Positions 12,541-51,650 of a DNA stretch of 52,071 nt are shown in pieces (positions within the stretch are counted from its first letter, which is position 1; every line of letters starts with the position of its first letter). Made by a program: the position numbers and the translations under genes. The notes beneath the pieces are model-generated. The model did not search any database. It saw nothing but the letters and a program-made list of their open reading frames with translations, and was not told the origin of the DNA. This stretch comes from an uncultured Gammaproteobacteria bacterium (lineage in GTDB: Bacteria > Patescibacteriota > Patescibacteriia > UBA2591 > CAYTBZ01), in the NCBI GenBank assembly GCA_964436275.1, contig CAYTBZ010000005.1:1-52071 (forward strand). The letters are read 5' to 3'.

Positions 12541-14811
12541 ATGTATCTGGAAAAAATAGAACTATTTGGCTTTAAATCGTTTGCTCAAAAAACTATTTTA
12601 AAATTTACTCCGGAAATTACCTGCATTGTTGGACCTAATGGTTCAGGAAAATCAAATATTGTTGATTCCATTCGCTGGGTCACCGGAGAACAAAGCTTGA
12701 AAATACTCCGAGGAAAAAAATCAGAAGATATTATTTTCTCTGGTTCCAATAAAAAACCTCGGTCAAACTTAGCTGAGGTTTCTTTATATTTAAATAATGA
12801 AGGAAACAAAAAATTAAATGATTATCCTAGCACTATAGTTTTATCTCGCCGTCTATTTAGAAATGGAGAAAATGAATATCTGCTTAATAAACAAAAAGTA
12901 CGACTCCAAGACATTGTTCTTCTTTTAGCACAAATTAATTTGGGACAAAAAAGTTATGGTATTGTCAGTCAAGGAATGACTGATTATATTCTTTTTTGTT
13001 CTCCTAAAGAAAGGAAAAATTTTTTTGATGAGGCAGTAGGTGTAAAACATTACCAAATCAAAAAAGAAAAAGCACTTAATCAATTAAAAAGGGCTTTGGT
13101 AAATCTTAAGCAAGGAGAATTGATGTTGGCAGAAATAAAGCCAAGATTACGCTCTCTTACCCGCCAAGTAAATCGTCTTAAAAGAAGAGAAGAAATTGAA
13201 AAAAATCTAAAAGAATTAGAAAAAAAATATTATGGTTTTTTCTGGAGAAAAGTTGAAAAAGAATATAATAAAGAAAAGGAGAGAGAAAAAGAAATCAATC
13301 AAAAATATCAAAATCAACTTGAAAAGGTAAACAAACTAAAAAAACAATTAAATCAGATAATGTCAGAAGAGGAAAAGGGAGGAGAGTTATCGAATCTTCA
13401 AAACGAATACGAAAAAGTTTTGAAAATAAAAAATGAACTCATATCTCAGCAGGCCTTATTAAGAGGAAAAATTCTTATAGAAAAGGAAAAGTTATCACAG
13501 AGAGAAAAAGAGAAAGAAATAAATTTTAATCAAGATGACTTGAAACGACTCATTAATTTTCTAAAAGAGATTGATTTAGACCAAGAAAAAATAATCGAAA
13601 TCATAGAAAAAACTAACTCAATAAAGGAGTTAAAAGCGATTAAAAATAAAATAGAAAATATCCAAGAAAAAATTCGTAATTTTCTTAGTAAAATCCAAAA
13701 AAATGAATATTCACCAACTTTTGACGATAAAATTTTAAAAAAATTAGAAAAAGAAAATCAAACTATTATTCAAAAATTAGAAAACATTGAAAAAGAAGTT
13801 CAAAAAATCAAAGAAAAAATCAATCAATATACTCAAAGAGAGGCAACAAAGAGGAAACATATATTTGAACTTCAAAAAAATTATCAAAAAGCACAAAATC
13901 TACTCGACATCCTTAATAATGAACTTAATGAAATAAAGATTAATATCAGCAGAATAGAAACAAAAAAAGAGGACCTTAAAAATGAAATTACGAAAAGAAT
14001 AGGAGATATTAATTTAATAAAAGAAACTTCTGAAGAAGAAATCATTCCAGAAGAATTAGAGGAAAAAATAAATAAACTTCGCTATCAAATAGAAATAATT
14101 GGCGGGATAGATCCAGAAACAGTAAAGGAATATGAAGAAACTAAAAGCCGTTTTGATTTTCTCTCTAACCAAATTGATGATTTAAAAAAAACAATAACCT
14201 CACTTAATAAATTAATAAAAGAATTGGACGAAAAAATTAAAAACCAATTTAACCAAGCCCTAAAAGAGATTAATCAGCAGTTTGATAAATATTTTAAACT
14301 TATTTTTGGAGGAGGGAAGGCACAATTAATTTTACGCGAAGAAACTATTGCTCAAAAAGAAAACGATACTAATCTAGATGAAAAAGAAACAAATTTAGAA
14401 AAAGAGGAAACAAAAACACCCTCTTTAGAGATAGCAAAAGACAAAGAAACATTCTCAGGTTTAGAGGTTTCTGCTTCTTTACCTAGAAAAAAAATAAAAA
14501 GCATTCATGCCTTTTCTGGAGGAGAAAAAGCCCTTACTTCCTTGGCTCTTATCTGTTCTATTATTGCTTATAACCCCCCTCCTTTTGTTATTTTAGACGA
14601 AGCTGATGCTGCTCTTGATGAAGCAAATTCTCAAAAATTTGTCTCTATTTTAGAACAACTTTCTCAAAAAACTCAATTTATTATTATTACTCATAATAGA
14701 GTAACTATGGAAAAGGCAAAAATTCTATATGGAGTCACTATGGACGAAGAGGGAACTTCAAAAATTCTCAGTTTAAATTTAGTTGAGGCAGAAAAAGTAG
14801 CCAAAAAATAA
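12541..14811 (+). CDS. smc: SMC-family ATPase (short, no recognisable hinge)
   Basis: GFKSFA, VGPNGSGKSN Walker A, FSGGEKALT signature, ILDEADAALDEAN Walker B/D-loop, IITHN; long coiled coils; follows rnc. Confidence 0.85.
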   Translation: MYLEKIELFGFKSFAQKTILKFTPEITCIVGPNGSGKSNIVDSIRWVTGEQSLKILRGKKSEDIIFSGSNKKPRSNLAEVSLYLNNEGNKKLNDYPSTIVLSRRLFRNGENEYLLNKQKVRLQDIVLLLAQINLGQKSYGIVSQGMTDYILFCSPKERKNFFDEAVGVKHYQIKKEKALNQLKRALVNLKQGELMLAEIKPRLRSLTRQVNRLKRREEIEKNLKELEKKYYGFFWRKVEKEYNKEKEREKEINQKYQNQLEKVNKLKKQLNQIMSEEEKGGELSNLQNEYEKVLKIKNELISQQALLRGKILIEKEKLSQREKEKEINFNQDDLKRLINFLKEIDLDQEKIIEIIEKTNSIKELKAIKNKIENIQEKIRNFLSKIQKNEYSPTFDDKILKKLEKENQTIIQKLENIEKEVQKIKEKINQYTQREATKRKHIFELQKNYQKAQNLLDILNNELNEIKINISRIETKKEDLKNEITKRIGDINLIKETSEEEIIPEELEEKINKLRYQIEIIGGIDPETVKEYEETKSRFDFLSNQIDDLKKTITSLNKLIKELDEKIKNQFNQALKEINQQFDKYFKLIFGGGKAQLILREETIAQKENDTNLDEKETNLEKEETKTPSLEIAKDKETFSGLEVSASLPRKKIKSIHAFSGGEKALTSLALICSIIAYNPPPFVILDEADAALDEANSQKFVSILEQLSQKTQFIIITHNRVTMEKAKILYGVTMDEEGTSKILSLNLVEAEKVAKK

Positions 14812-30944: not shown

Positions 30945-31906
30945 CAAAGAAAAGAAAATACCATTTTTTCTTTTACTTGAGACCTGAAGAAATAATTTCT
31001 TTGTTCTTTTTACTTCTTTTAATTACTATTTTCTTCTATTATCGAGTAAATATCTTTCACTATCACCATCTTCCTATCTATCTCCTTCTTTACGCTGGAC
31101 CAATTATTGCCTTTTACTATCTTTTAAAATATGTCTTTTGTTCCGCTGATAAGAAACTCCATTTTAAATTAGTTGTCAAAAAAATAATAATTTTCTTTCG
31201 CGATTGGATTCCTATAATCTTAGTTATCTTTATTTATAATGCCATTCATGATACTACTCATTTAATCAATTCTAAAGAAATGGATAGTTTATTAATTAAA
31301 ATAGACAAATTTTTATTTTTTGGGCATCACCCTACACTTTTTTTTGAAAAATTAATCAACCCTTATCTTAGTTATTACACCTTCTTTATCTATGATTTTT
31401 ATCTTTGGCTCTATCCTTTGACTTTAACTATCTTTTATCTTAGAAAAAATAAAAAAATATTCCATCAATTAGTTTTAACAATGACCATTGCTCTTTACTT
31501 AGGACTAATTGGTTATTTAATTGTTCCTTGCAAAGGACCAGTATTAGCCCAAAGAAATTTATATTCTTGTGATTTATTCGGCAGACAAGATTTTACTTAT
31601 ACTCATTCTTTAGCCCAATTATATATTTACCAAAGATATGCTTTTCACTGCTTTCCCAGTTTACATACTACTCTATCAACCATCTTTCTTTTCTTTATTT
31701 TACGCTTTTCTTCCTCTAAAATACTCCGCTTACTTTATCTTATTATTGTCCCAAGTATTTGGTTTGCTACTCTTTATCTCCGTTGGCACTATCTTATTGA
31801 TATCATTGCTGGCTTTCTCTTGGCTTACCTCTCTATTTACCTTGGTTTTAAAATTGGCCAATTTTGGCAAAGAAAATCCTTAATAAAAGCCAATGAAAAA
31901 ACTTAG
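30941..31906 (+). CDS. PAP2-superfamily membrane phosphotransferase (AUR1/IPC-synthase-like)
   Basis: LIVPCKGP, HCFPSLHT and LYLRWHYLIDIIAG catalytic motifs on a multi-TM scaffold. Confidence 0.8.
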   Translation: MTKKRKYHFFFYLRPEEIISLFFLLLLITIFFYYRVNIFHYHHLPIYLLLYAGPIIAFYYLLKYVFCSADKKLHFKLVVKKIIIFFRDWIPIILVIFIYNAIHDTTHLINSKEMDSLLIKIDKFLFFGHHPTLFFEKLINPYLSYYTFFIYDFYLWLYPLTLTIFYLRKNKKIFHQLVLTMTIALYLGLIGYLIVPCKGPVLAQRNLYSCDLFGRQDFTYTHSLAQLYIYQRYAFHCFPSLHTTLSTIFLFFILRFSSSKILRLLYLIIVPSIWFATLYLRWHYLIDIIAGFLLAYLSIYLGFKIGQFWQRKSLIKANEKT

Positions 31907-37699: not shown

Positions 37700-38562
37700 A
37701 TCTTCAAATTTTTAAGATAATTTTTGAATTCTTCTTTAAACTTTTCTCTCTCTAAAGCAAAATCAACAATTGCCTTTAAAAATTCTAACTTATTACCACA
37801 ATCATAGTATCTACCTTGATATTGATAAGCATAAAAATCCCTTTGAGTTAAAAGTAGATCCACTGCATCAGCTAACCAAAGCTCCCCTCCTTTACCAATT
37901 TCTGTTTTCTTTACTGCTTCAAAAATATCTGGAGTAAAAATATAACGACCAGCAACAGCTAAATTAGAAGGCGCATCTTTAGGTAAGGGTTTCTCCACAA
38001 TATCTTTTACTTTATAAACTCTATCTTCCACTTTTTCTCCGTCAATCACTCCGTAACGATGGACTTTTTCTTTAGCGACTTGAGTAACTCCAATAACCGG
38101 ACTTTGATATTTATAAAATACTTCCATCATCTGTTTGGTTGCTGGAACTTCCCCTTTGATTAAATCGTCGCCAAAAGCAAAAACAAAGGGTTCTGAGCCA
38201 ATTAACTTTTCTACATTAAGAACCGGTGTAGCATTTCCATAAGGACCTTTCTGCCGAAGATAAACAAAATAAGCCATCTCTGAAAGATGACGGATTTCTT
38301 CTAATTCCTTTATTTTATTATTTCTTTCTAAATGAACTTCTAAGGACTTATTTTGGTCAAAATGATCTTCAATCGCTCTTTTGCCTTGCCCAGTGACTAA
38401 AATAATCTCCTCAATGCCTGAGTCAACCATTTCCTCTACAATATACTGAATGACCGGCTTGTCAATAATGGCCAGCATTTCCTTTGGCTGGGCTTTGGTT
38501 GCTGGTAGAAAACGGGTACCAAAGCCAGCTACTGGAATCACAGCTTTTTTTATTTTTTTCAT
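37696..38562 (-). CDS. galU: UTP--glucose-1-phosphate uridylyltransferase
   Basis: KAVIPVAGFGTRFLPATKAQPKEML, FGDD, RYGV, VEKP, GRYI and YDCG motifs. Confidence 0.93.
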   Translation of the reverse strand: MKKIKKAVIPVAGFGTRFLPATKAQPKEMLAIIDKPVIQYIVEEMVDSGIEEIILVTGQGKRAIEDHFDQNKSLEVHLERNNKIKELEEIRHLSEMAYFVYLRQKGPYGNATPVLNVEKLIGSEPFVFAFGDDLIKGEVPATKQMMEVFYKYQSPVIGVTQVAKEKVHRYGVIDGEKVEDRVYKVKDIVEKPLPKDAPSNLAVAGRYIFTPDIFEAVKKTEIGKGGELWLADAVDLLLTQRDFYAYQYQGRYYDCGNKLEFLKAIVDFALEREKFKEEFKNYLKNLKI

Positions 38563-38742
38563 AAGCGTCTTTTGTTTTTATTTTACAATAAAAATAAAAA
38601 AAATAAAAGAAGAAGTTAAAATAATTTCTTCTTTTTGTTTTTTAGATATTTGTTTTTGAATATAATCACTAATCAAAAAATATAAGGTGAATAGGCAAGG
38701 CCAGCAAAACAAATCCATTTTACAATATAGGATTGCTTTAAT

Positions 38743-39217
38743 AGAAAATTCTCGCTTTGTGTTTCCTGATTGTTTTTTCCTTACCCCAAATTACCAACTA
38801 CAAATTACCAATTACTGCAAATTTGAGCGTTAGCGAAAATTTGCTGGCAAACTAATTTTGTAATTTGTGTGAGTAATTTGTAATTTGGGAGCAAATTTTC
38901 ATAGAATGAAAATTTGCTGGCGGTGGGAGGAGGATTCGCCCCGCCTTTGGCGGGGCGTCCTGTCGAATGACAGGACGAACCTATTTCAGTTGTAATTTGT
39001 GTGTGTAATTTGTAGTTTGGGCAGAAAATTCTCGCTTTGTGTTTCTTGATTGTTTTCTTCTTACCCAAATTACAAATTACCAATTACTAATTACTGAAAA
39101 TTCGAGCGAAGCGAGAATTTTCTGGCAAACTTAATTTTGTAATTTGTGTGAGTAATTTGTAATTTGGGAGCAAATTTTCATAGAATGAAAATTTGCTGGC
39201 GGTGGGAGGAGGATTCG
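38743..39217. repeat. Tandem ~195-bp units (38743-38938 and 39023-39217) containing the tRNA-Ser 3' end plus downstream sequence
   Basis: 86 bp identical at 38853-38938 and 39132-39217; the remainder is similar; internal inverted repeats and AATTTGT/ACAAATT heptamer runs. Confidence 0.92.
38918..38982 (-). pseudogene. tRNA-Ser 3' fragment with T-loop interrupted by two palindromes
   Basis: Minus strand AGGTT-CG-[TCCTGTCATTCGACAGGA]-CG-[CCCCGCCAAAGGCGGGG]-CG-AATCCTCCTCCCACCGCCA, compared with AGGTTCGAATCCTCCTCCCACCGCCA in the intact tRNA. Confidence 0.8.
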
Positions 39218-39289
39218 AACCTCCGGTCCCGCCAAAGGCGGGACAGCGCTTTTCGAGAGCGCCCCGTTCAACCACTCCGGCATCCCACC
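39197..39289 (-). tRNA. tRNA-Ser(CGA)
   Basis: GCGCT-CTCGAAA-AGCGC anticodon arm, long variable arm GTCCCGCC-TTT-GGCGGGAC, T-loop GGTTCGAATCC, encoded CCA. Confidence 0.95.
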
Positions 39290-39299
39290 TAAAAGTCCT

Positions 39300-40529
39300 T
39301 TAAATTTTTAAATTAATCAAACCAATAATAAGCCAAAAAAGCAAAGATAAATCATTTTTAAAGTAAGGAACATCAACCAAACCATGAAAAATAATAATAA
39401 GCAAAGCCAATAAACAGGAGAGAGCAAGAAAATTATTTTTAACGATTAATTTCTTTTTTACCTCTTTAAATGATTTTAGGAGCAATAAAAGAAAAGTCAA
39501 CAAACCAAAAAGCCCTAATTCTGACCAAAAATTAAGAAAGATATTATGAGGGTATAAAAAAATCTCAATATACTTTGCCTGATGGTAAGGTACAATTTTC
39601 TTTTGATAGCCAGCTAAACCAGCACCAAAAAGCCAATTATCTTTAAGCATCTGCCAACTTTCTTGCCAAAGAGTAAGGCGAACCTTAACTGACCAATCTT
39701 GACCATTAAATTTATTAATTAAATATTCGCGAAATAGAGGGATAGTAGTAAAAAGAATGATTAAAATTAAAATGATTAAAATCGTCTTTAGGCGATACTT
39801 TTTAAAACTCAGGCCAAAAACAAAAAGAGATAGAACTAAGGCGGCTATTGCTCCTTCTGAACGAGCAAAAACAATGGCTAAAAAAGAGAAAAATAAAACT
39901 ATTAGATAAAAAAACTTCTTTTTCTCCCAACCTCCCTTAAAAATCCTTCCTAGCAACAATCCTATTATTGGCCCAAGGTAAAGCGCTAAAGCATTAGGGT
40001 AAGGAAAAACACCAGTTACCCGTCGACCCTCTCCTTTAAACCAGTATTGATAAGGAACCAACCAGCCAGTAAATTTTTGATAAAAAGCAATTAAAGAAAC
40101 TATTAAAGCACCAGCGCCTAAAGCGGTCAAAACTAATTCTAAATCTTTTTTATCTTTAATTTCATTAATAAAAACGAAAAAGAAAAGCACTGGCTCCAAG
40201 AAATAGGCCTTCCAAATACCCAAAGCAGAAATTTTATTAGGAGAGACAATAACGGCTAATGAAGCGACAGCTAACCAAAGGAAAATCAAATATCTGAACT
40301 TTCCTAAATAAACCTTTTCTCCACTGAAAATTCTTTTTAAAAACCAAACAAGAAAAAGAATAATTATCATCAGCTCCAAGAGGGTAAAAGGAATGAAAAA
40401 AACTTTAAAACGTAGAAGATAACTGGGTAATGCGAAAAGGATAAAAGCTAAAGCAAAATCTAATCTTTTTATACTTAAAGCAGTGAAAAGCAAAGCAAAA
40501 ATGAAAATAAGAAAATAATAAGTATTCAT
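39300..40529 (-). CDS. O-antigen ligase/Wzy-family membrane protein
   Basis: RVTGVFPYPNALA, ARSEGA, VRLTLWQ, GAGLAGY and YPHNIFLNFWSELGLFG motifs. Confidence 0.88.
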   Translation of the reverse strand: MNTYYFLIFIFALLFTALSIKRLDFALAFILFALPSYLLRFKVFFIPFTLLELMIIILFLVWFLKRIFSGEKVYLGKFRYLIFLWLAVASLAVIVSPNKISALGIWKAYFLEPVLFFFVFINEIKDKKDLELVLTALGAGALIVSLIAFYQKFTGWLVPYQYWFKGEGRRVTGVFPYPNALALYLGPIIGLLLGRIFKGGWEKKKFFYLIVLFFSFLAIVFARSEGAIAALVLSLFVFGLSFKKYRLKTILIILILIILFTTIPLFREYLINKFNGQDWSVKVRLTLWQESWQMLKDNWLFGAGLAGYQKKIVPYHQAKYIEIFLYPHNIFLNFWSELGLFGLLTFLLLLLKSFKEVKKKLIVKNNFLALSCLLALLIIIFHGLVDVPYFKNDLSLLFWLIIGLINLKI

Positions 40530-50720: not shown

Positions 50721-51650
50721 ATGAAAAAAATTCAAAAATTAATACAAGAGTTTTTAGAATATTTAGAAATAGAAAAAAATAGAAGCAGAGCTACTATTAG
50801 AAATTATCAATTTTATTTAGAAAGATTTGTCAATTGGGCTAAAATAACTGCTCCAGAGAAAATTAACTTAGAATTAGTCAGAAAATATCGCCTTTGGTTA
50901 AATCGTCTTAAGGTAAAAAAAGACCAAACACTTAAAAAAAGCACTCAGAATTATCATCTAATAGCGCTGCGCTCCTTTTTAAAATATCTTAGCAAAAGAG
51001 ATATAGAAAGTTTGGCTCCAGAAAAAATAGAATTAGCTAAAATGCCTGAGCGTTCGGTAGAATTCTTAGAAGGAAAAGACCTAGAAAACTTATTAAACGC
51101 TCCCTTAAAAACTGAAGAGCCAGAAATTATAAAAATGAGAGATAAGGCAATTTTAGAACTTTTCTTTTCAACTGGCTTACGGGTTTCCGAACTTTGCCAA
51201 TTGACTAAAGAGCAAGTAAATTTAAAAAAGGATGAATTTACTGTAAGAGGAAAGGGAGATAAACCAAGAATTGTTTTTCTTTCCAATCAAGCAAAATTCT
51301 GGTTAAAAAAATATTTAGATTTACGAGAAGATATTGAGCCGTTTCTCTTTATCCGCCATGACCGCGCTGCTTTAAGAAATAAATCTTTGCTAAAATCTAA
51401 TCTAACTCCCCGGTCTGTACAAAGAATTATTAAAAAATATGCTAAAATAGCCGGCATACCCAAAAAAATTACCCCTCACACCTTAAGACATAGTTTTGCT
51501 ACTGACCTATTAAATAATGGAGCGGACATTCGCTCTGTTCAAGCCCTTTTAGGTCATTCTTCCATCACCACAACTCAAATTTATACTCACATAACTGATA
51601 AAAAATTAAAAGAAATTTACCAGACCTATCATAATAAAAGAAAAAAATAA
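50721..51650 (+). CDS. Tyrosine recombinase XerC/XerD family
   Basis: RDKAILELFFSTGLRVSEL, VRGKGDKPRIV, HTLRHSFATDLL, LLGHSSITTTQIYTH catalytic residues. Confidence 0.93.
   Translation: MKKIQKLIQEFLEYLEIEKNRSRATIRNYQFYLERFVNWAKITAPEKINLELVRKYRLWLNRLKVKKDQTLKKSTQNYHLIALRSFLKYLSKRDIESLAPEKIELAKMPERSVEFLEGKDLENLLNAPLKTEEPEIIKMRDKAILELFFSTGLRVSELCQLTKEQVNLKKDEFTVRGKGDKPRIVFLSNQAKFWLKKYLDLREDIEPFLFIRHDRAALRNKSLLKSNLTPRSVQRIIKKYAKIAGIPKKITPHTLRHSFATDLLNNGADIRSVQALLGHSSITTTQIYTHITDKKLKEIYQTYHNKRKK

What the first reader, a model, noticed from the sequence alone, without database searches (positions are those of the whole stretch)
38743..39289. tRNA-Ser 3' end repeated with a long, highly structured trailer
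Seen (minus strand): tRNA-Ser, trailer X, tRNA 3' fragment, trailer X', with period ~279 bp and 86 bp identical. Each CCA is followed at once by a 12-bp hairpin (GCAAATTTTCAT/ATGAAAATTTGC), then heptamer runs (GTAATTT/AAATTAC) in both orientations that could fold back over long range. A third copy of the heptamer block lies at about 38990-39021. Known: E. coli tyrT carries tandem repeats containing the tRNA 3' end, and integrative elements duplicate tRNA 3' ends. Inference: a processed structured ncRNA, or the scar of a small element that repeatedly targets this tRNA.
Basis: partly seen in the sequence, partly recalled or inferred. Interest (0 to 1): 0.65.

Follow-up and report, generated by a model that had tools for sequence, protein, structure and literature searches.

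The report
Hairpin-plugged tRNA-Ser fragment with modular trailer
Downstream of a working serine tRNA gene in an ultra-small (Patescibacteria) bacterium lies a dead copy of the gene's 3' end whose T-loop is plugged by two GC-rich hairpins, set among AT-rich hairpin modules; this is most likely an ORF-less relic of a widespread, apparently undescribed family of small selfish cassettes that hit tRNA genes and leave an intact copy.

Summary
tRNA-Ser(CGA) is followed by a structured AT-rich trailer, a second tRNA 3' end and a second trailer (93-nt repeat, 97% identical, period 279). Independent unitigs and a 10.5-kb contig from a related strain confirm the layout, so it is not an assembly artefact.

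- **The second tRNA 3' end is not a plain copy.** It reads AGGTTCG, then two GC-rich hairpins, then CGAATCC...CCA: a T-arm split at its central CG. The same plug sits in T-loops of tRNA fragments beside intact tRNAs in 16 of 55 genomes of the order and 33 of 401 of the phylum. Its stems show compensatory changes.
- **A nuclease gene is often nearby.** Several such loci carry an 80-100-aa GIY-YIG nuclease gene between fragment and intact tRNA. This genome's only copy sits beside tRNA-Gln.
- **The trailer is a chain of dispersed modules.** Each module starts just after a CCA-G and ends in a pseudo-GCCA. Module content differs between strains (132 vs 279 bp between the CCA ends).

Best reading (about 0.6): an ORF-less relic of nuclease-driven break and repair at the T-arm-to-CCA segment. 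Phage T4 SegB recognises this segment. A role as RNA is untested.

The parts
39197..39289 (-). Intact tRNA-Ser(CGA), type II, CCA encoded, discriminator G
   Evidence: ARAGORN; Rfam RF00005, 54.8 bits
39170..39196 (-). H1 hairpin (GCAAATTTTCAT-TCT-ATGAAAATTTGC), starting directly after CCA
   Evidence: I22. An identical hairpin stands alone between an A-run and a T-run on C22:925-951.
39123..39169 (-). F block: AAATTAC-type heptamer run ending in the pseudo-3' end GTTTGCCA
   Evidence: (D2)
39096..39122 (-). H2 hairpin (GAAAATTCTCG..CGAATTTTC), starting after the pseudo-GCCA
   Evidence: covariation across genera
39064..39095 (-). R block: GTAATTN heptamer run, inverted partner of F and F'
   Evidence: I7, 17/17 perfect; I11
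39023..39063 (-). S spacer; its 3' end (AAGCGAGAATTTTCTG) is complementary to the 5' arm of H2
   Evidence: I3 and I12; D3
38990..39022 (-). F' block (third heptamer block), truncated at ..CAAATTACAA
   Evidence: D2. The same truncated junction is present in strain L226.
38983..38989 (-). Junction CTGAAAT between the trailer and the tRNA fragment
   Evidence: Identical in L226 and L230
38976..38982 (-). a': AGGTTCG, the last 3 nt of the T-stem 5' strand plus TTCG of the T-loop
   Evidence: model R1 hit 38932-38981 at 71.9 bits
38939..38975 (-). E: double-hairpin plug TCCTGTC-ATTC-GACAGGA, CG, CCCCGCC-AAA-GGCGGGG, flanked by CG on both sides
   Evidence: The second hairpin is the reverse complement of the tRNA's own variable arm over 15 nt (I16). 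It is replaced by CCCTGTCATCCGACAGGG in a variant strain.
38918..38938 (-). b: CGAATCC + T-stem 3' strand + acceptor 3' strand + GCCA, identical to the end of the intact tRNA
   Evidence: D1
38891..38917 (-). H1 hairpin, second copy
   Evidence: I21
38845..38890 (-). F block, second copy, ending in GTTTGCCA
   Evidence: D1, D2
38817..38844 (-). H2' hairpin (GCAAATTTTCGCTAACGCTCAAATTTGC), a different family member from H2; the same sequence as the copies on C12, C4 and C22
38743..38816 (-). R' block and S' spacer, 86-91% identical to R and S; no F' follows
   Evidence: D3, D4

Best explanation
**Proposed explanation.** The locus is debris from repeated break-and-repair at the 3' part of the tRNA-Ser(CGA) gene, the segment from the T-arm to CCA. 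It has three layers.

1. **The working tRNA gene.**
2. **A dead partial copy of its 3' end.** The palindromic T-loop (TTCG|AA) is split at the central CG and filled by two GC-rich hairpins, with CG on both sides. This is a member, lacking the nuclease gene, of a Patescibacteria-wide cassette family. The full version holds an 80-100-aa single-domain GIY-YIG nuclease gene between a hairpin-plugged tRNA fragment and a restored intact tRNA.
3. **A chain of AT-rich hairpin/heptamer modules.** Each begins right after a CCA-G and ends in a pseudo-GCCA. They recombine among dispersed copies.

**Inferred mechanism.** A small nuclease cuts tRNA-gene DNA in this segment, as T4 SegB does. Repair copies or brings in a replacement tRNA segment, so the cell keeps a working gene. 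The displaced half-site stays behind and is blocked by hairpins whose loops (TCGAAT / ATTCGA) mimic the T-loop.

**Shown:** the anatomy, the family distribution, the hairpin covariation, the restriction to T-loops of fragments, the link to GIY-YIG genes, and the strain polymorphism.

**Inferred:** that the nuclease makes the cut, the order of events, and that this copy once held the ORF.
For: **Family and hairpins**
- The same a'-hairpins-b layout occurs twice after tRNA-Gln on C3 and next to many different tRNAs in relatives.
- The two stems are 98.6% paired, with 11 of 16 pairs changed on both sides; 0 of 500 shuffles reach this.
- Model R1 finds the plug in 16 of 55 genomes of the order and 33 of 401 of the phylum.
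- In an unbiased 10-mer census of two near-closed genomes, 5 of 5 true hairpins lie in T-loops of tRNA fragments beside intact tRNAs.
- When the T-loop is TTCA, the middle dinucleotide is TG, so the stems include the flank (L116).

**Link to GIY-YIG genes**
- GIY-YIG ORFs lie inside such duplications in G111, G265 and G045.
- They lie within 20-120 bp of the plug in G035, G036 (two loci) and G007.
- A decayed ORF (MYYIYILL*) in G036:C8 shows how ORF-less copies arise.
- This genome's only mini GIY-YIG gene (C15:8654-8870) sits 35 bp upstream of tRNA-Gln(TTG), behind a hairpin-riddled 5' fragment of that tRNA.

**Trailer and strains**
- All 11 H hairpins in sense orientation follow CCA and start with G.
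- Strain L226 keeps the fragment and plug unchanged but differs by a 148-bp module indel and by hairpin swaps.

**Enzymatic precedent**
- SegB is a GIY-YIG enzyme that leaves 2-nt 3' overhangs. Its site runs from GGTTCRANTCC to a preferred cut right after CCAR (PMC2330249).
- Ssn enzymes are single-domain GIY-YIG ssDNA nucleases tied to hairpin repeats (PMC11893778).
Against: - No nuclease gene or recognisable remnant lies in this locus. The 214-nt spacer is made only of AT-rich modules.
- Most plugged fragments in the order (about 35 of 40) have no adjacent GIY-YIG gene.
- Many genomes rich in mini GIY-YIG genes (for example G002, with 17) have no plug.
- Plug presence also tracks Y1/HUH (RAYT-like) genes: 16 of 16 genomes with the plug against 19 of 39 without, p = 1.5e-4, not corrected for phylogeny.
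- The mini nucleases lack a DNA-binding domain, so how they would find a T-arm is unknown.
- In several loci the fragment does not match the neighbouring tRNA (L116, L117, L118, L128).
- Perfect stems could result from how palindromes are made rather than from selection.
- No biochemical or expression data exist.
Confidence: 0.6

Rival explanations
1. Local tandem duplication by unequal crossing-over or replication slippage between the repetitive trailer modules (as in E. coli tyrT). Unrelated GC-rich mini-palindromes then inserted, and they survive only in the dead copy because an insertion in the working tRNA would be lethal.
For: - A 148-bp indel bounded by the F/F' direct repeats separates two strains, so recombination between modules does happen.
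- Perfectly identical 86-bp and 161-bp tandem units exist at other loci.
- GC-rich hairpins also sit in D- and anticodon loops of another dead fragment.
- Plugs never occur in intact tRNAs, as survivorship would predict.
Against: - The left edge of the duplicate falls 6-21 nt before the T-loop centre in dozens of unrelated loci and genomes, which random slippage does not predict.
- Identity between the two units is uneven (97-100% against 86-91%), and H2 and H2' are different family members.
- True plug hairpins were found only in T-loops of fragments, not scattered in other neutral DNA.
- Plugs are significantly close to GIY-YIG genes.
Confidence: 0.15
2. Remnant attL/attR of a classical integrative element or genomic island that used a tyrosine integrase with a crossover in the T-loop. 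Most of the element was later deleted (a CIME-like remnant), and the heptamer runs are arm-type binding sites.
For: - Direct repeats of a tRNA 3' end starting in the T-arm are the hallmark of such islands (own knowledge: Williams 2002; Dehalococcoides ssrA islands, PMC3146451).
- In some loci the fragment carries CCA while the intact gene does not, as expected for a replaced gene end.
- In G049:C97 two plugged fragments bracket a 2-kb two-gene island.
- Trailer copies border defence genes on C3 and C22.
Against: - There is no integrase in the locus, only one Xer-like PF00589 gene per genome, and none detected in G049, which has about 12 plugged loci.
- The spacers are mostly 10-60 nt in many independent loci.
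- The two hairpins split the would-be crossover core.
- The same design occurs at a duplicated 16S 5' end.
Confidence: 0.12
3. The trailer and/or the plugged fragment act as RNA or as a cis-signal. Candidates are a terminator or processing platform for the tRNA transcript (for example long AT-rich stems as RNase III sites) or a small RNA with a tRNA-like CCA tail.
For: - The predicted folds are strong: z = -7.3 for the trailer and z = -5.4 for the fragment, which forms a three-way junction with a free 15-nt CCA tail.
- The H-R-S-F architecture is conserved next to tRNAs in other genera and families (G009, G035, L225), with some compensatory changes in H.
- An identical H1 hairpin flanked by A- and T-runs looks like a bidirectional terminator on C22.
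Against: - No Rfam family matched and no RNA run holds the region.
- Module number and identity differ between strains 97-98% identical.
- Most tRNAs of this genome lack any such trailer.
- H1 here has no U-tract.
- Covariation in the heptamer arms is minimal.
Confidence: 0.1
4. Assembly artefact: a collapsed or chimeric join of repeats.
For: - The repeats break this assembly at several contig ends (C4, C6, C12, C13, C22).
- No single unitig spans the whole 547 bp.
Against: - Unique junction unitigs with 0 differences at single-copy depth occur in several runs.
- Two independent JGI contigs (L226, L230) show the same order: tRNA, junction, plugged fragment.
Confidence: 0.02

Closest known systems
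Phage T4 SegB, a free-standing GIY-YIG homing endonuclease in the tRNA gene cluster (PMC2330249)
   Same: - It is a GIY-YIG nuclease acting on tRNA genes.
- Its recognition site starts with the T-arm motif GGTTCRANTCC, and its preferred cut falls right after CCAR.
- It leaves 2-nt 3' overhangs.
- Here the two insertion points are the T-loop centre (with a 2-nt CG on both sides) and directly after CCA-G.
   Different: - SegB is a phage protein with an added DNA-binding part. The Patescibacteria ORFs are 80-100 aa, catalytic domain only.
- SegB homing leaves no hairpin plugs and no partial tRNA duplicates.
- No nuclease gene is present at this locus.
Ssn family (SsnA with NTS/SRM hairpin repeats; PMC11893778)
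   Same: A single-domain GIY-YIG protein of about 94 aa is tied to short hairpin repeats that flank its gene. It cuts single-stranded DNA next to the hairpin in a sequence-specific way.
   Different: - NTS repeats occur in hundreds of dispersed copies and modulate transformation.
- The plugs here are few per genome (3 in this one) and confined to tRNA-fragment T-loops.
- The paper mentions neither tRNA nor Patescibacteria.
- Membership of the Patescibacteria ORFs in cd10448 could not be tested.
Fungal mitochondrial mobile endonuclease ORFs that create gene hybrids, and GC-rich double-hairpin elements / GC clusters
   Same: - Endonuclease genes invade a host gene, bring a replacement gene end and leave the displaced end as a pseudo-fragment (gene hybrids: PMC3787672; Allomyces atp6 from my own knowledge).
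- Short GC-rich hairpin elements in AT-rich genomes are mobile (Allomyces DHEs, cited in PMC3787672; yeast GC clusters, PMC4478555).
   Different: - Those are organellar, target protein genes, and have larger ORFs.
- The hairpin elements there are dispersed rather than tied to the break point of the duplicated gene.
E. coli tyrT 178-bp tandem repeats carrying the tRNA 3' end
   Same: A tRNA gene is followed by tandem units that each contain the last nucleotides of the tRNA, including CCA.
   Different: - tyrT has no T-loop plug.
- tyrT units are a uniform tandem array.
- Here the units are mosaics of dispersed modules, and the duplicate begins in the T-arm, as in many unrelated loci.
REP/BIME elements with RAYT (Y1 HUH) enzymes
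   Same: - Hairpins occur in inverted pairs.
- All 16 genomes with the plug carry Y1/HUH genes.
- Hairpins beside those genes share a GTC..GAC stem top.
   Different: - REPs are numerous and intergenic.
- The plugs are rare, have variable stems within a genome, and sit in tRNA-fragment T-loops.
- Only 1 of about 12 plugged loci in G049 shares a contig with a Y1 gene (G049:C121).

Membership tests
Patescibacteria tRNA-lodged double-hairpin / mini GIY-YIG cassette (not found in the literature searched) | A partial copy of a tRNA gene lies beside an intact copy, broken in a tRNA loop | tested here: met
   AGGTTCG..CGAATCCTCCTCCCACCGCCA at 38918-38982, 214 nt downstream of the intact tRNA
Patescibacteria tRNA-lodged double-hairpin / mini GIY-YIG cassette (not found in the literature searched) | A GC-rich hairpin doublet sits at the break, flanked by the duplicated loop dinucleotide | tested here: met
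   Model R1 scores 71.9 bits at this locus. The family alignment is 98.6% paired, with 11 of 16 pairs compensated.
Patescibacteria tRNA-lodged double-hairpin / mini GIY-YIG cassette (not found in the literature searched) | An 80-100-aa GIY-YIG ORF lies between the fragment and the intact tRNA | tested here: not met
   No ORF or remnant lies at this locus. The feature is present elsewhere: C15 in this genome and G111, G265, G045, G007, G035 and G036. This copy is therefore at most an ORF-less derivative.
Integrase-type tRNA-targeted genomic island (attL/attR) | A tyrosine or serine integrase gene lies next to one att site | tested here: not met
   There is no such gene in the 279-bp unit. The genome has one Xer-like PF00589 gene, 12 kb away at 51063-51602.
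Integrase-type tRNA-targeted genomic island (attL/attR) | An uninterrupted identical core is present in both att sites | tested here: not met
   In the distal copy the T-loop core is split by 38 nt.
tyrT-type tandem repeat | Uniform head-to-tail units arisen from a single duplication | tested here: not met
   Identity ranges from 100% to 86% along the unit. H2 and H2' belong to different family members, and the first unit alone has an extra F'.
REP/BIME-RAYT | A high-copy dispersed intergenic hairpin family cognate to a RAYT gene | tested here: inconclusive
   This genome has only 3 plug copies, all in tRNA fragments. Co-occurrence with Y1 genes is 16/16 against 19/39. The cognate hairpins of the Y1 genes are similar but not the same.
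Ssn (cd10448) nuclease with SRM hairpins | A single-domain GIY-YIG protein of the cd10448 clade that cuts ssDNA at its hairpin | not testable with these tools
   Only Pfam GIY-YIG matched, NCBIfam gave nothing, and the nearest PDB entries are UPF0213 proteins 1ZG2 and 1YWL. No CDD library or assay was available.
Any Rfam RNA family (other than tRNA) | A score at or above the family's gathering threshold | tested here: not met
   Only RF00005 passes for the intact tRNA. All other hits are far below threshold.

The most novel reading that the evidence does not exclude
The 3' part of tRNA genes in Patescibacteria may be colonised by two cooperating kinds of non-autonomous hairpin modules that imitate their own target. 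GC-rich plugs have loops that copy the T-loop (TCGAAT). AT-rich modules end in a copy of the tRNA terminus (GCCA-G). Both would be moved or created in trans by a minimal, structure- or hairpin-guided GIY-YIG nuclease (SegB- or Ssn-like), which this genome encodes only once, at another tRNA. If so, this would be a new class of bacterial mobile DNA that lives on essential RNA genes by always leaving an intact copy.
Probability: 0.3. Interest if true: 0.8.

Novelty: new variant of a known kind. Interest (0 to 1): 0.6.

Why it matters
- **tRNA genes as targets.** If the reading is right, the tRNA genes of the ultra-small CPR bacteria are a battleground for tiny selfish cassettes. These would work without an integrase or transposase of known type, and would leave hairpin-plugged gene fragments as fossils.
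- **Practical consequences.** This would explain why such MAG assemblies break at tRNA genes. It warns annotators about pseudo-tRNA ends and apparent "T-loop introns". It also points to minimal GIY-YIG nucleases with hairpin or tRNA-shaped DNA targets, which could be useful single-strand DNA tools like the Ssn enzymes.
- **What this locus adds.** It shows the ORF-less end state. It shows that the plug is stable while the AT-rich modules turn over between strains. It also shows a second insertion point, right after CCA-G, that matches the cut site of T4 SegB.

Tried and rejected
- **Rfam scan** of 38000-40000 at E <= 10 found only the tRNA.
- **Promoter and terminator scans** were no better than shuffles.
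- **RNA-seq runs:** none hold the region, so transcription stays untested.
- **Close relatives via GalU in genome contigs:** the best hit was 64% identical, so no syntenic close genome was found there. The metagenome scan with the tRNA 5' end did find one.
- **Tyrosine integrase hypothesis:** one Xer-like gene per genome and none in the plug-rich G049.
- **P-nucleotide or fold-back origin of the hairpins from the flanks:** rejected, because the stems are unrelated to the flanking T-stem sequence.
- **A T-loop intron in a functional tRNA:** rejected, because every plugged copy examined lacks part of the tRNA or lies beside an intact paralogue.
- **Generic REP accumulation in neutral DNA:** weakened by the unbiased census.
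- **Short blast hits of the heptamer block in other genomes:** some are (AAATTAC)4 runs inside ORFs and may be unrelated microsatellites.
- **Nested-hairpin insertion points** (L121, L122) gave no single consistent cut position.
- **NCBIfam** gave no family for the mini nucleases.
Full report
**1. The observation**

On the minus strand, ARAGORN and Rfam place tRNA-Ser(CGA) at 39289..39197. A 93-nt direct repeat (38853-38945 / 39132-39224) is 97% identical, with its first 86 nt identical and a spacing of 279. It contains the tRNA 3' end from the T-loop to CCA, a 13-bp-arm hairpin that starts directly after CCA, and a run of AAATTAC-type heptamers. The rest of the 279-bp unit is 86-91% identical.

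Heptamer runs occur in both orientations. They include a perfect 17-nt long-range inverted repeat (I7), and a third block lies at 38990-39030. The region folds far better than shuffles: the trailer has z = -7.3 as RNA, and the whole 547 nt has z = -14.6 as DNA.

**2. Not an artefact**

The window is the whole of contig C5 of a 658-kb, 22-contig, 32% GC genome, and the repeats do break this assembly elsewhere. Even so, the layout holds:

- Logan unitigs of vent metagenome runs X1 and X2 cover the unique junctions 38909-39002 and 38974-39107 without a difference. In X1 their depth equals that of the single-copy flanks.
- Further runs hold the same junction.
- A 10.5-kb JGI contig (L226; also L230) from a strain 97-98% identical in the flanking genes spans the whole locus in the same order.

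**3.

The distal copy reads AGGTTCG / TCCTGTC-ATTC-GACAGGA / CG / CCCCGCC-AAA-GGCGGGG / CGAATCCTCCTCCCACCGCCA. It is a T-arm whose palindromic loop TTCG|AA is split at the central CG by two hairpins, with CG on each side.

- The same design occurs twice in tandem (86-bp period) after tRNA-Gln(CTG) on C3. These three copies are the only ones in this genome.
- A pattern search, and then a covariance model built from 13 examples, found it in 16 of 55 genomes of the order and 33 of 401 sampled genomes of the phylum.
- The two stems are 98.6% paired, and 11 of 16 pairs are changed on both sides. Shuffled and slid controls score far lower.
- Where the T-loop is TTCA, the middle dinucleotide is TG, so the stems use the flank.
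- The conserved hairpin cores, GTC-ATYC-GAC and GTC-GRAT-GAC, contain the T-loop hexamer TCGAAT in the two orientations.

**4. Context of the plugs**

- Nearly every copy lies 10-60 nt from an intact tRNA gene of some kind (Met, Leu, Asn, Arg, Ser, Gly, Glu, Gln, Thr, Tyr, Ile and others).
- Most have the form [6-21 nt of T-stem + TTCG]-hairpins-[rest of T-arm, acceptor 3' strand, with or without CCA] downstream of the tRNA. Some are the mirror image: a tRNA 5' part up to TTCG, followed by hairpins, upstream of the tRNA.
- The fragment often matches the neighbouring tRNA, but not always.
- Extra hairpins nest inside hairpin loops, and tandem arrays occur.
- In G044 the same kind of doublet splits a short duplicate of the 16S 5' end, just upstream of the real 16S gene.
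- A census of the bare 10-nt core in two nearly closed genomes avoids the bias of my model. It gave 18 occurrences. Five had fully complementary flanks, and all five are in T-loops of tRNA fragments beside intact tRNAs.
- No plug was seen in an intact tRNA.

**5. Who might do it**

- **Tyrosine recombinases.** Each genome has only one Xer-like tyrosine recombinase, and the plug-rich G049 shows none.
- **Y1/HUH genes.** These co-occur with plugs (16 of 16 genomes against 19 of 39, p = 1.5e-4). Phylogeny was not controlled, and adjacency was seen once.
- **Mini GIY-YIG genes (the stronger link).**
  - In the closed genomes G111 and G265, and in G045, the DNA between a plugged 5' fragment and the restored tRNA encodes an 80-100-aa GIY-YIG protein, intact or decayed.
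  - In G035, G036 (two loci) and G007 such an ORF lies 20-120 bp from a plug. One locus keeps only the first eight codons.
  - About 0.1 chance adjacencies would be expected among some 40 plugged loci; at least four were seen within the order.
  - This genome's single mini GIY-YIG gene (C15:8654-8870) lies 35 bp upstream of tRNA-Gln(TTG). Just before it lies a duplicate of the ORF's own 3' end plus a tRNA-Gln 5' fragment that stops at the T-stem. GC-rich hairpins fill the D- and anticodon loops of that fragment. One of them, CCGCCAAAGGCGG, is the window's atypical second hairpin.

After reaching this point I looked at earlier notes of this scan. They describe the same cassette at other tRNAs. 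They are unchecked AI notes and do not count as support.

**6. The AT-rich trailer**

- It is a dispersed modular family, with copies on C3 (after tRNA-Asp), C12 (after tRNA-Ser GCT), C4, C13 and C22, and probably C6. Most copies are at contig ends.
- The modules are: H (a hairpin), F and R (inverted heptamer blocks) and S (a spacer whose end pairs with H).
- All 11 sense-oriented H hairpins start right after ...CCA and begin with G. Five follow real tRNA ends, and six follow the pseudo-ends GTTTGCCA or GTCCGCCA that close the preceding F block.
- In this genome only tRNAs ending in an encoded GCCA (Asp and three Ser) carry the trailer.
- The H-R-S-F layout is found next to tRNAs in other genera and families (G009 tRNA-Gly; G035 tRNA-Tyr and tRNA-Trp). 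It also follows tRNA-Ser(CGA) in a more distant relative that has no fragment. The fold is conserved, with some compensated changes in H.
- Between the window and strain L226:
  - The tRNA, the junction CTGAAAT-AGGTTCG, the plug and the 3' end are identical.
  - A 148-bp block bounded by F and F' is present only in the window, so the CCA-to-CCA distance is 279 against 132.
  - The top of H1 is exchanged with compensation (CAT/ATG to CGC/GCG).
  - H2' replaces H2.
- A more divergent strain has a canonical plug hairpin in place of the atypical one.

So the plugged fragment is old and stable, while the AT-rich modules are the moving part.

**7. Mechanism**

Phage T4 SegB is a GIY-YIG homing endonuclease whose 27-bp site begins with the T-arm motif GGTTCRANTCC. 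It often ends in CCAR, with the preferred cut right after it, and it leaves 2-nt 3' overhangs (PMC2330249). The two insertion points at this locus fall at the two ends of that footprint: the T-loop centre, with a 2-nt repeat on both sides, and the position after CCA-G.

Ssn enzymes show that single-domain GIY-YIG proteins of this size can be site-specific single-strand DNA nucleases tied to hairpin repeats (PMC11893778).

Fungal mitochondria supply the precedent for endonuclease genes that replace a gene end and leave the old end behind, in genomes that also hold mobile GC-rich double hairpins.

I therefore read the locus as an ORF-less relic of nuclease-driven break and repair at the T-arm-to-CCA segment of tRNA-Ser(CGA). 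The anatomy, distribution, covariation and associations are shown. Three steps are inferred: the cutting enzyme, the order of events, and whether this copy ever held the ORF.

**8. Rivals**

- **Plain unequal crossing-over plus secondary hairpin insertion.** This explains the module indel. It does not explain the recurrent T-arm boundary or the confinement of plugs to fragments.
- **Classical integrase att remnant.** No integrase is present, and the core is split.
- **A role as RNA or cis-signal.** This cannot be excluded without expression data, and it may coexist with the scar reading, above all for the conserved H-R-S-F trailer.
- **Assembly artefact.** Practically excluded.

**9. Novelty**

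I found no description of hairpin-plugged tRNA fragments or of mini GIY-YIG cassettes at bacterial tRNA genes in the papers searched. The CPR rRNA insertion study concerns intron-like insertions with LAGLIDADG enzymes.

The principle is known: a selfish endonuclease cassette that restores its target by partial duplication. I therefore rate this as a new variant of a known kind. This particular locus is a degenerate member. Its value lies in the allele comparison, the CCA-G module rule and the phylum-wide census.

Noticed in passing
G000 contig C15:8460-8970 (same genome, another contig): The genome's only mini GIY-YIG gene (80 aa) lies 35 bp upstream of tRNA-Gln(TTG). Before it lies a duplicate of the ORF's 3' end plus a tRNA-Gln 5' fragment. 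That fragment's D-loop holds three tandem CCCGCC-ARAG-GCGG-ACAGAG units, and its anticodon loop holds further hairpins.
   Followed up: partly
window 38939-38955 vs 39228-39242: The atypical second plug hairpin is the exact reverse complement (15 nt) of the variable arm of the adjacent tRNA-Ser. It also matches a CCGCCAAAGGCGG hairpin family seen on C15, C7 and C11. A variant strain has a canonical hairpin in this slot.
   Followed up: partly
L172 = G044:C10:32250-32750: A hairpin doublet of the same type splits a short duplicate of the 16S rRNA 5' end (AGAGTTTGATCC|..|TGGTTCAG), about 65 nt upstream of the true 16S start.
   Followed up: no
L121 = G049:C97:8300-12000: The locus shares synteny with the window (an O-antigen-ligase-like gene followed by tRNA-Ser(CGA)). 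Here two plugged fragments bracket a 2-kb insert encoding a 304-aa Cys-rich secreted protein and a 121-aa membrane protein. The insert contains neither an integrase nor a nuclease gene.
   Followed up: partly
L137, L142, L143 (G020, G008, G037): Perfect (AAATTAC)4 runs lie inside apparent protein-coding sequence in other genomes of the order. They may be an unrelated microsatellite, or an in-gene relative of the heptamer blocks.
   Followed up: no
G000 C7 downstream of tRNA-Val(CAC) (about 31540-31600) and the C13 end (about 12560-12640): Another tRNA-flank repeat family, (ATTATACAATTA)n, follows tRNA-Val(CAC) and recurs next to a trailer copy at the C13 contig end.
   Followed up: no
G000 C3:1-600 and C22: Trailer copies border defence genes: an HTH-fused HsdM-like gene after tRNA-Asp on C3, and an AbiEi/AbiEii-like pair on C22. 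These assignments come from reading the translations and were not checked with a family search.
   Followed up: no
window 51063-51602: The genome's only tyrosine recombinase (Xer-like, 312-aa frame) lies just upstream of a tRNA-Arg/Ala/Ala cluster at the contig end.
   Followed up: no
G000 C15:8971-9045 and C3:21591-21625: REP-like hairpins GTCAGGGTCGCACCCTGAC, the family earlier linked to this genome's RAYT-like gene, follow both tRNA-Gln loci, directly after the plugged fragments on C3.
   Followed up: no
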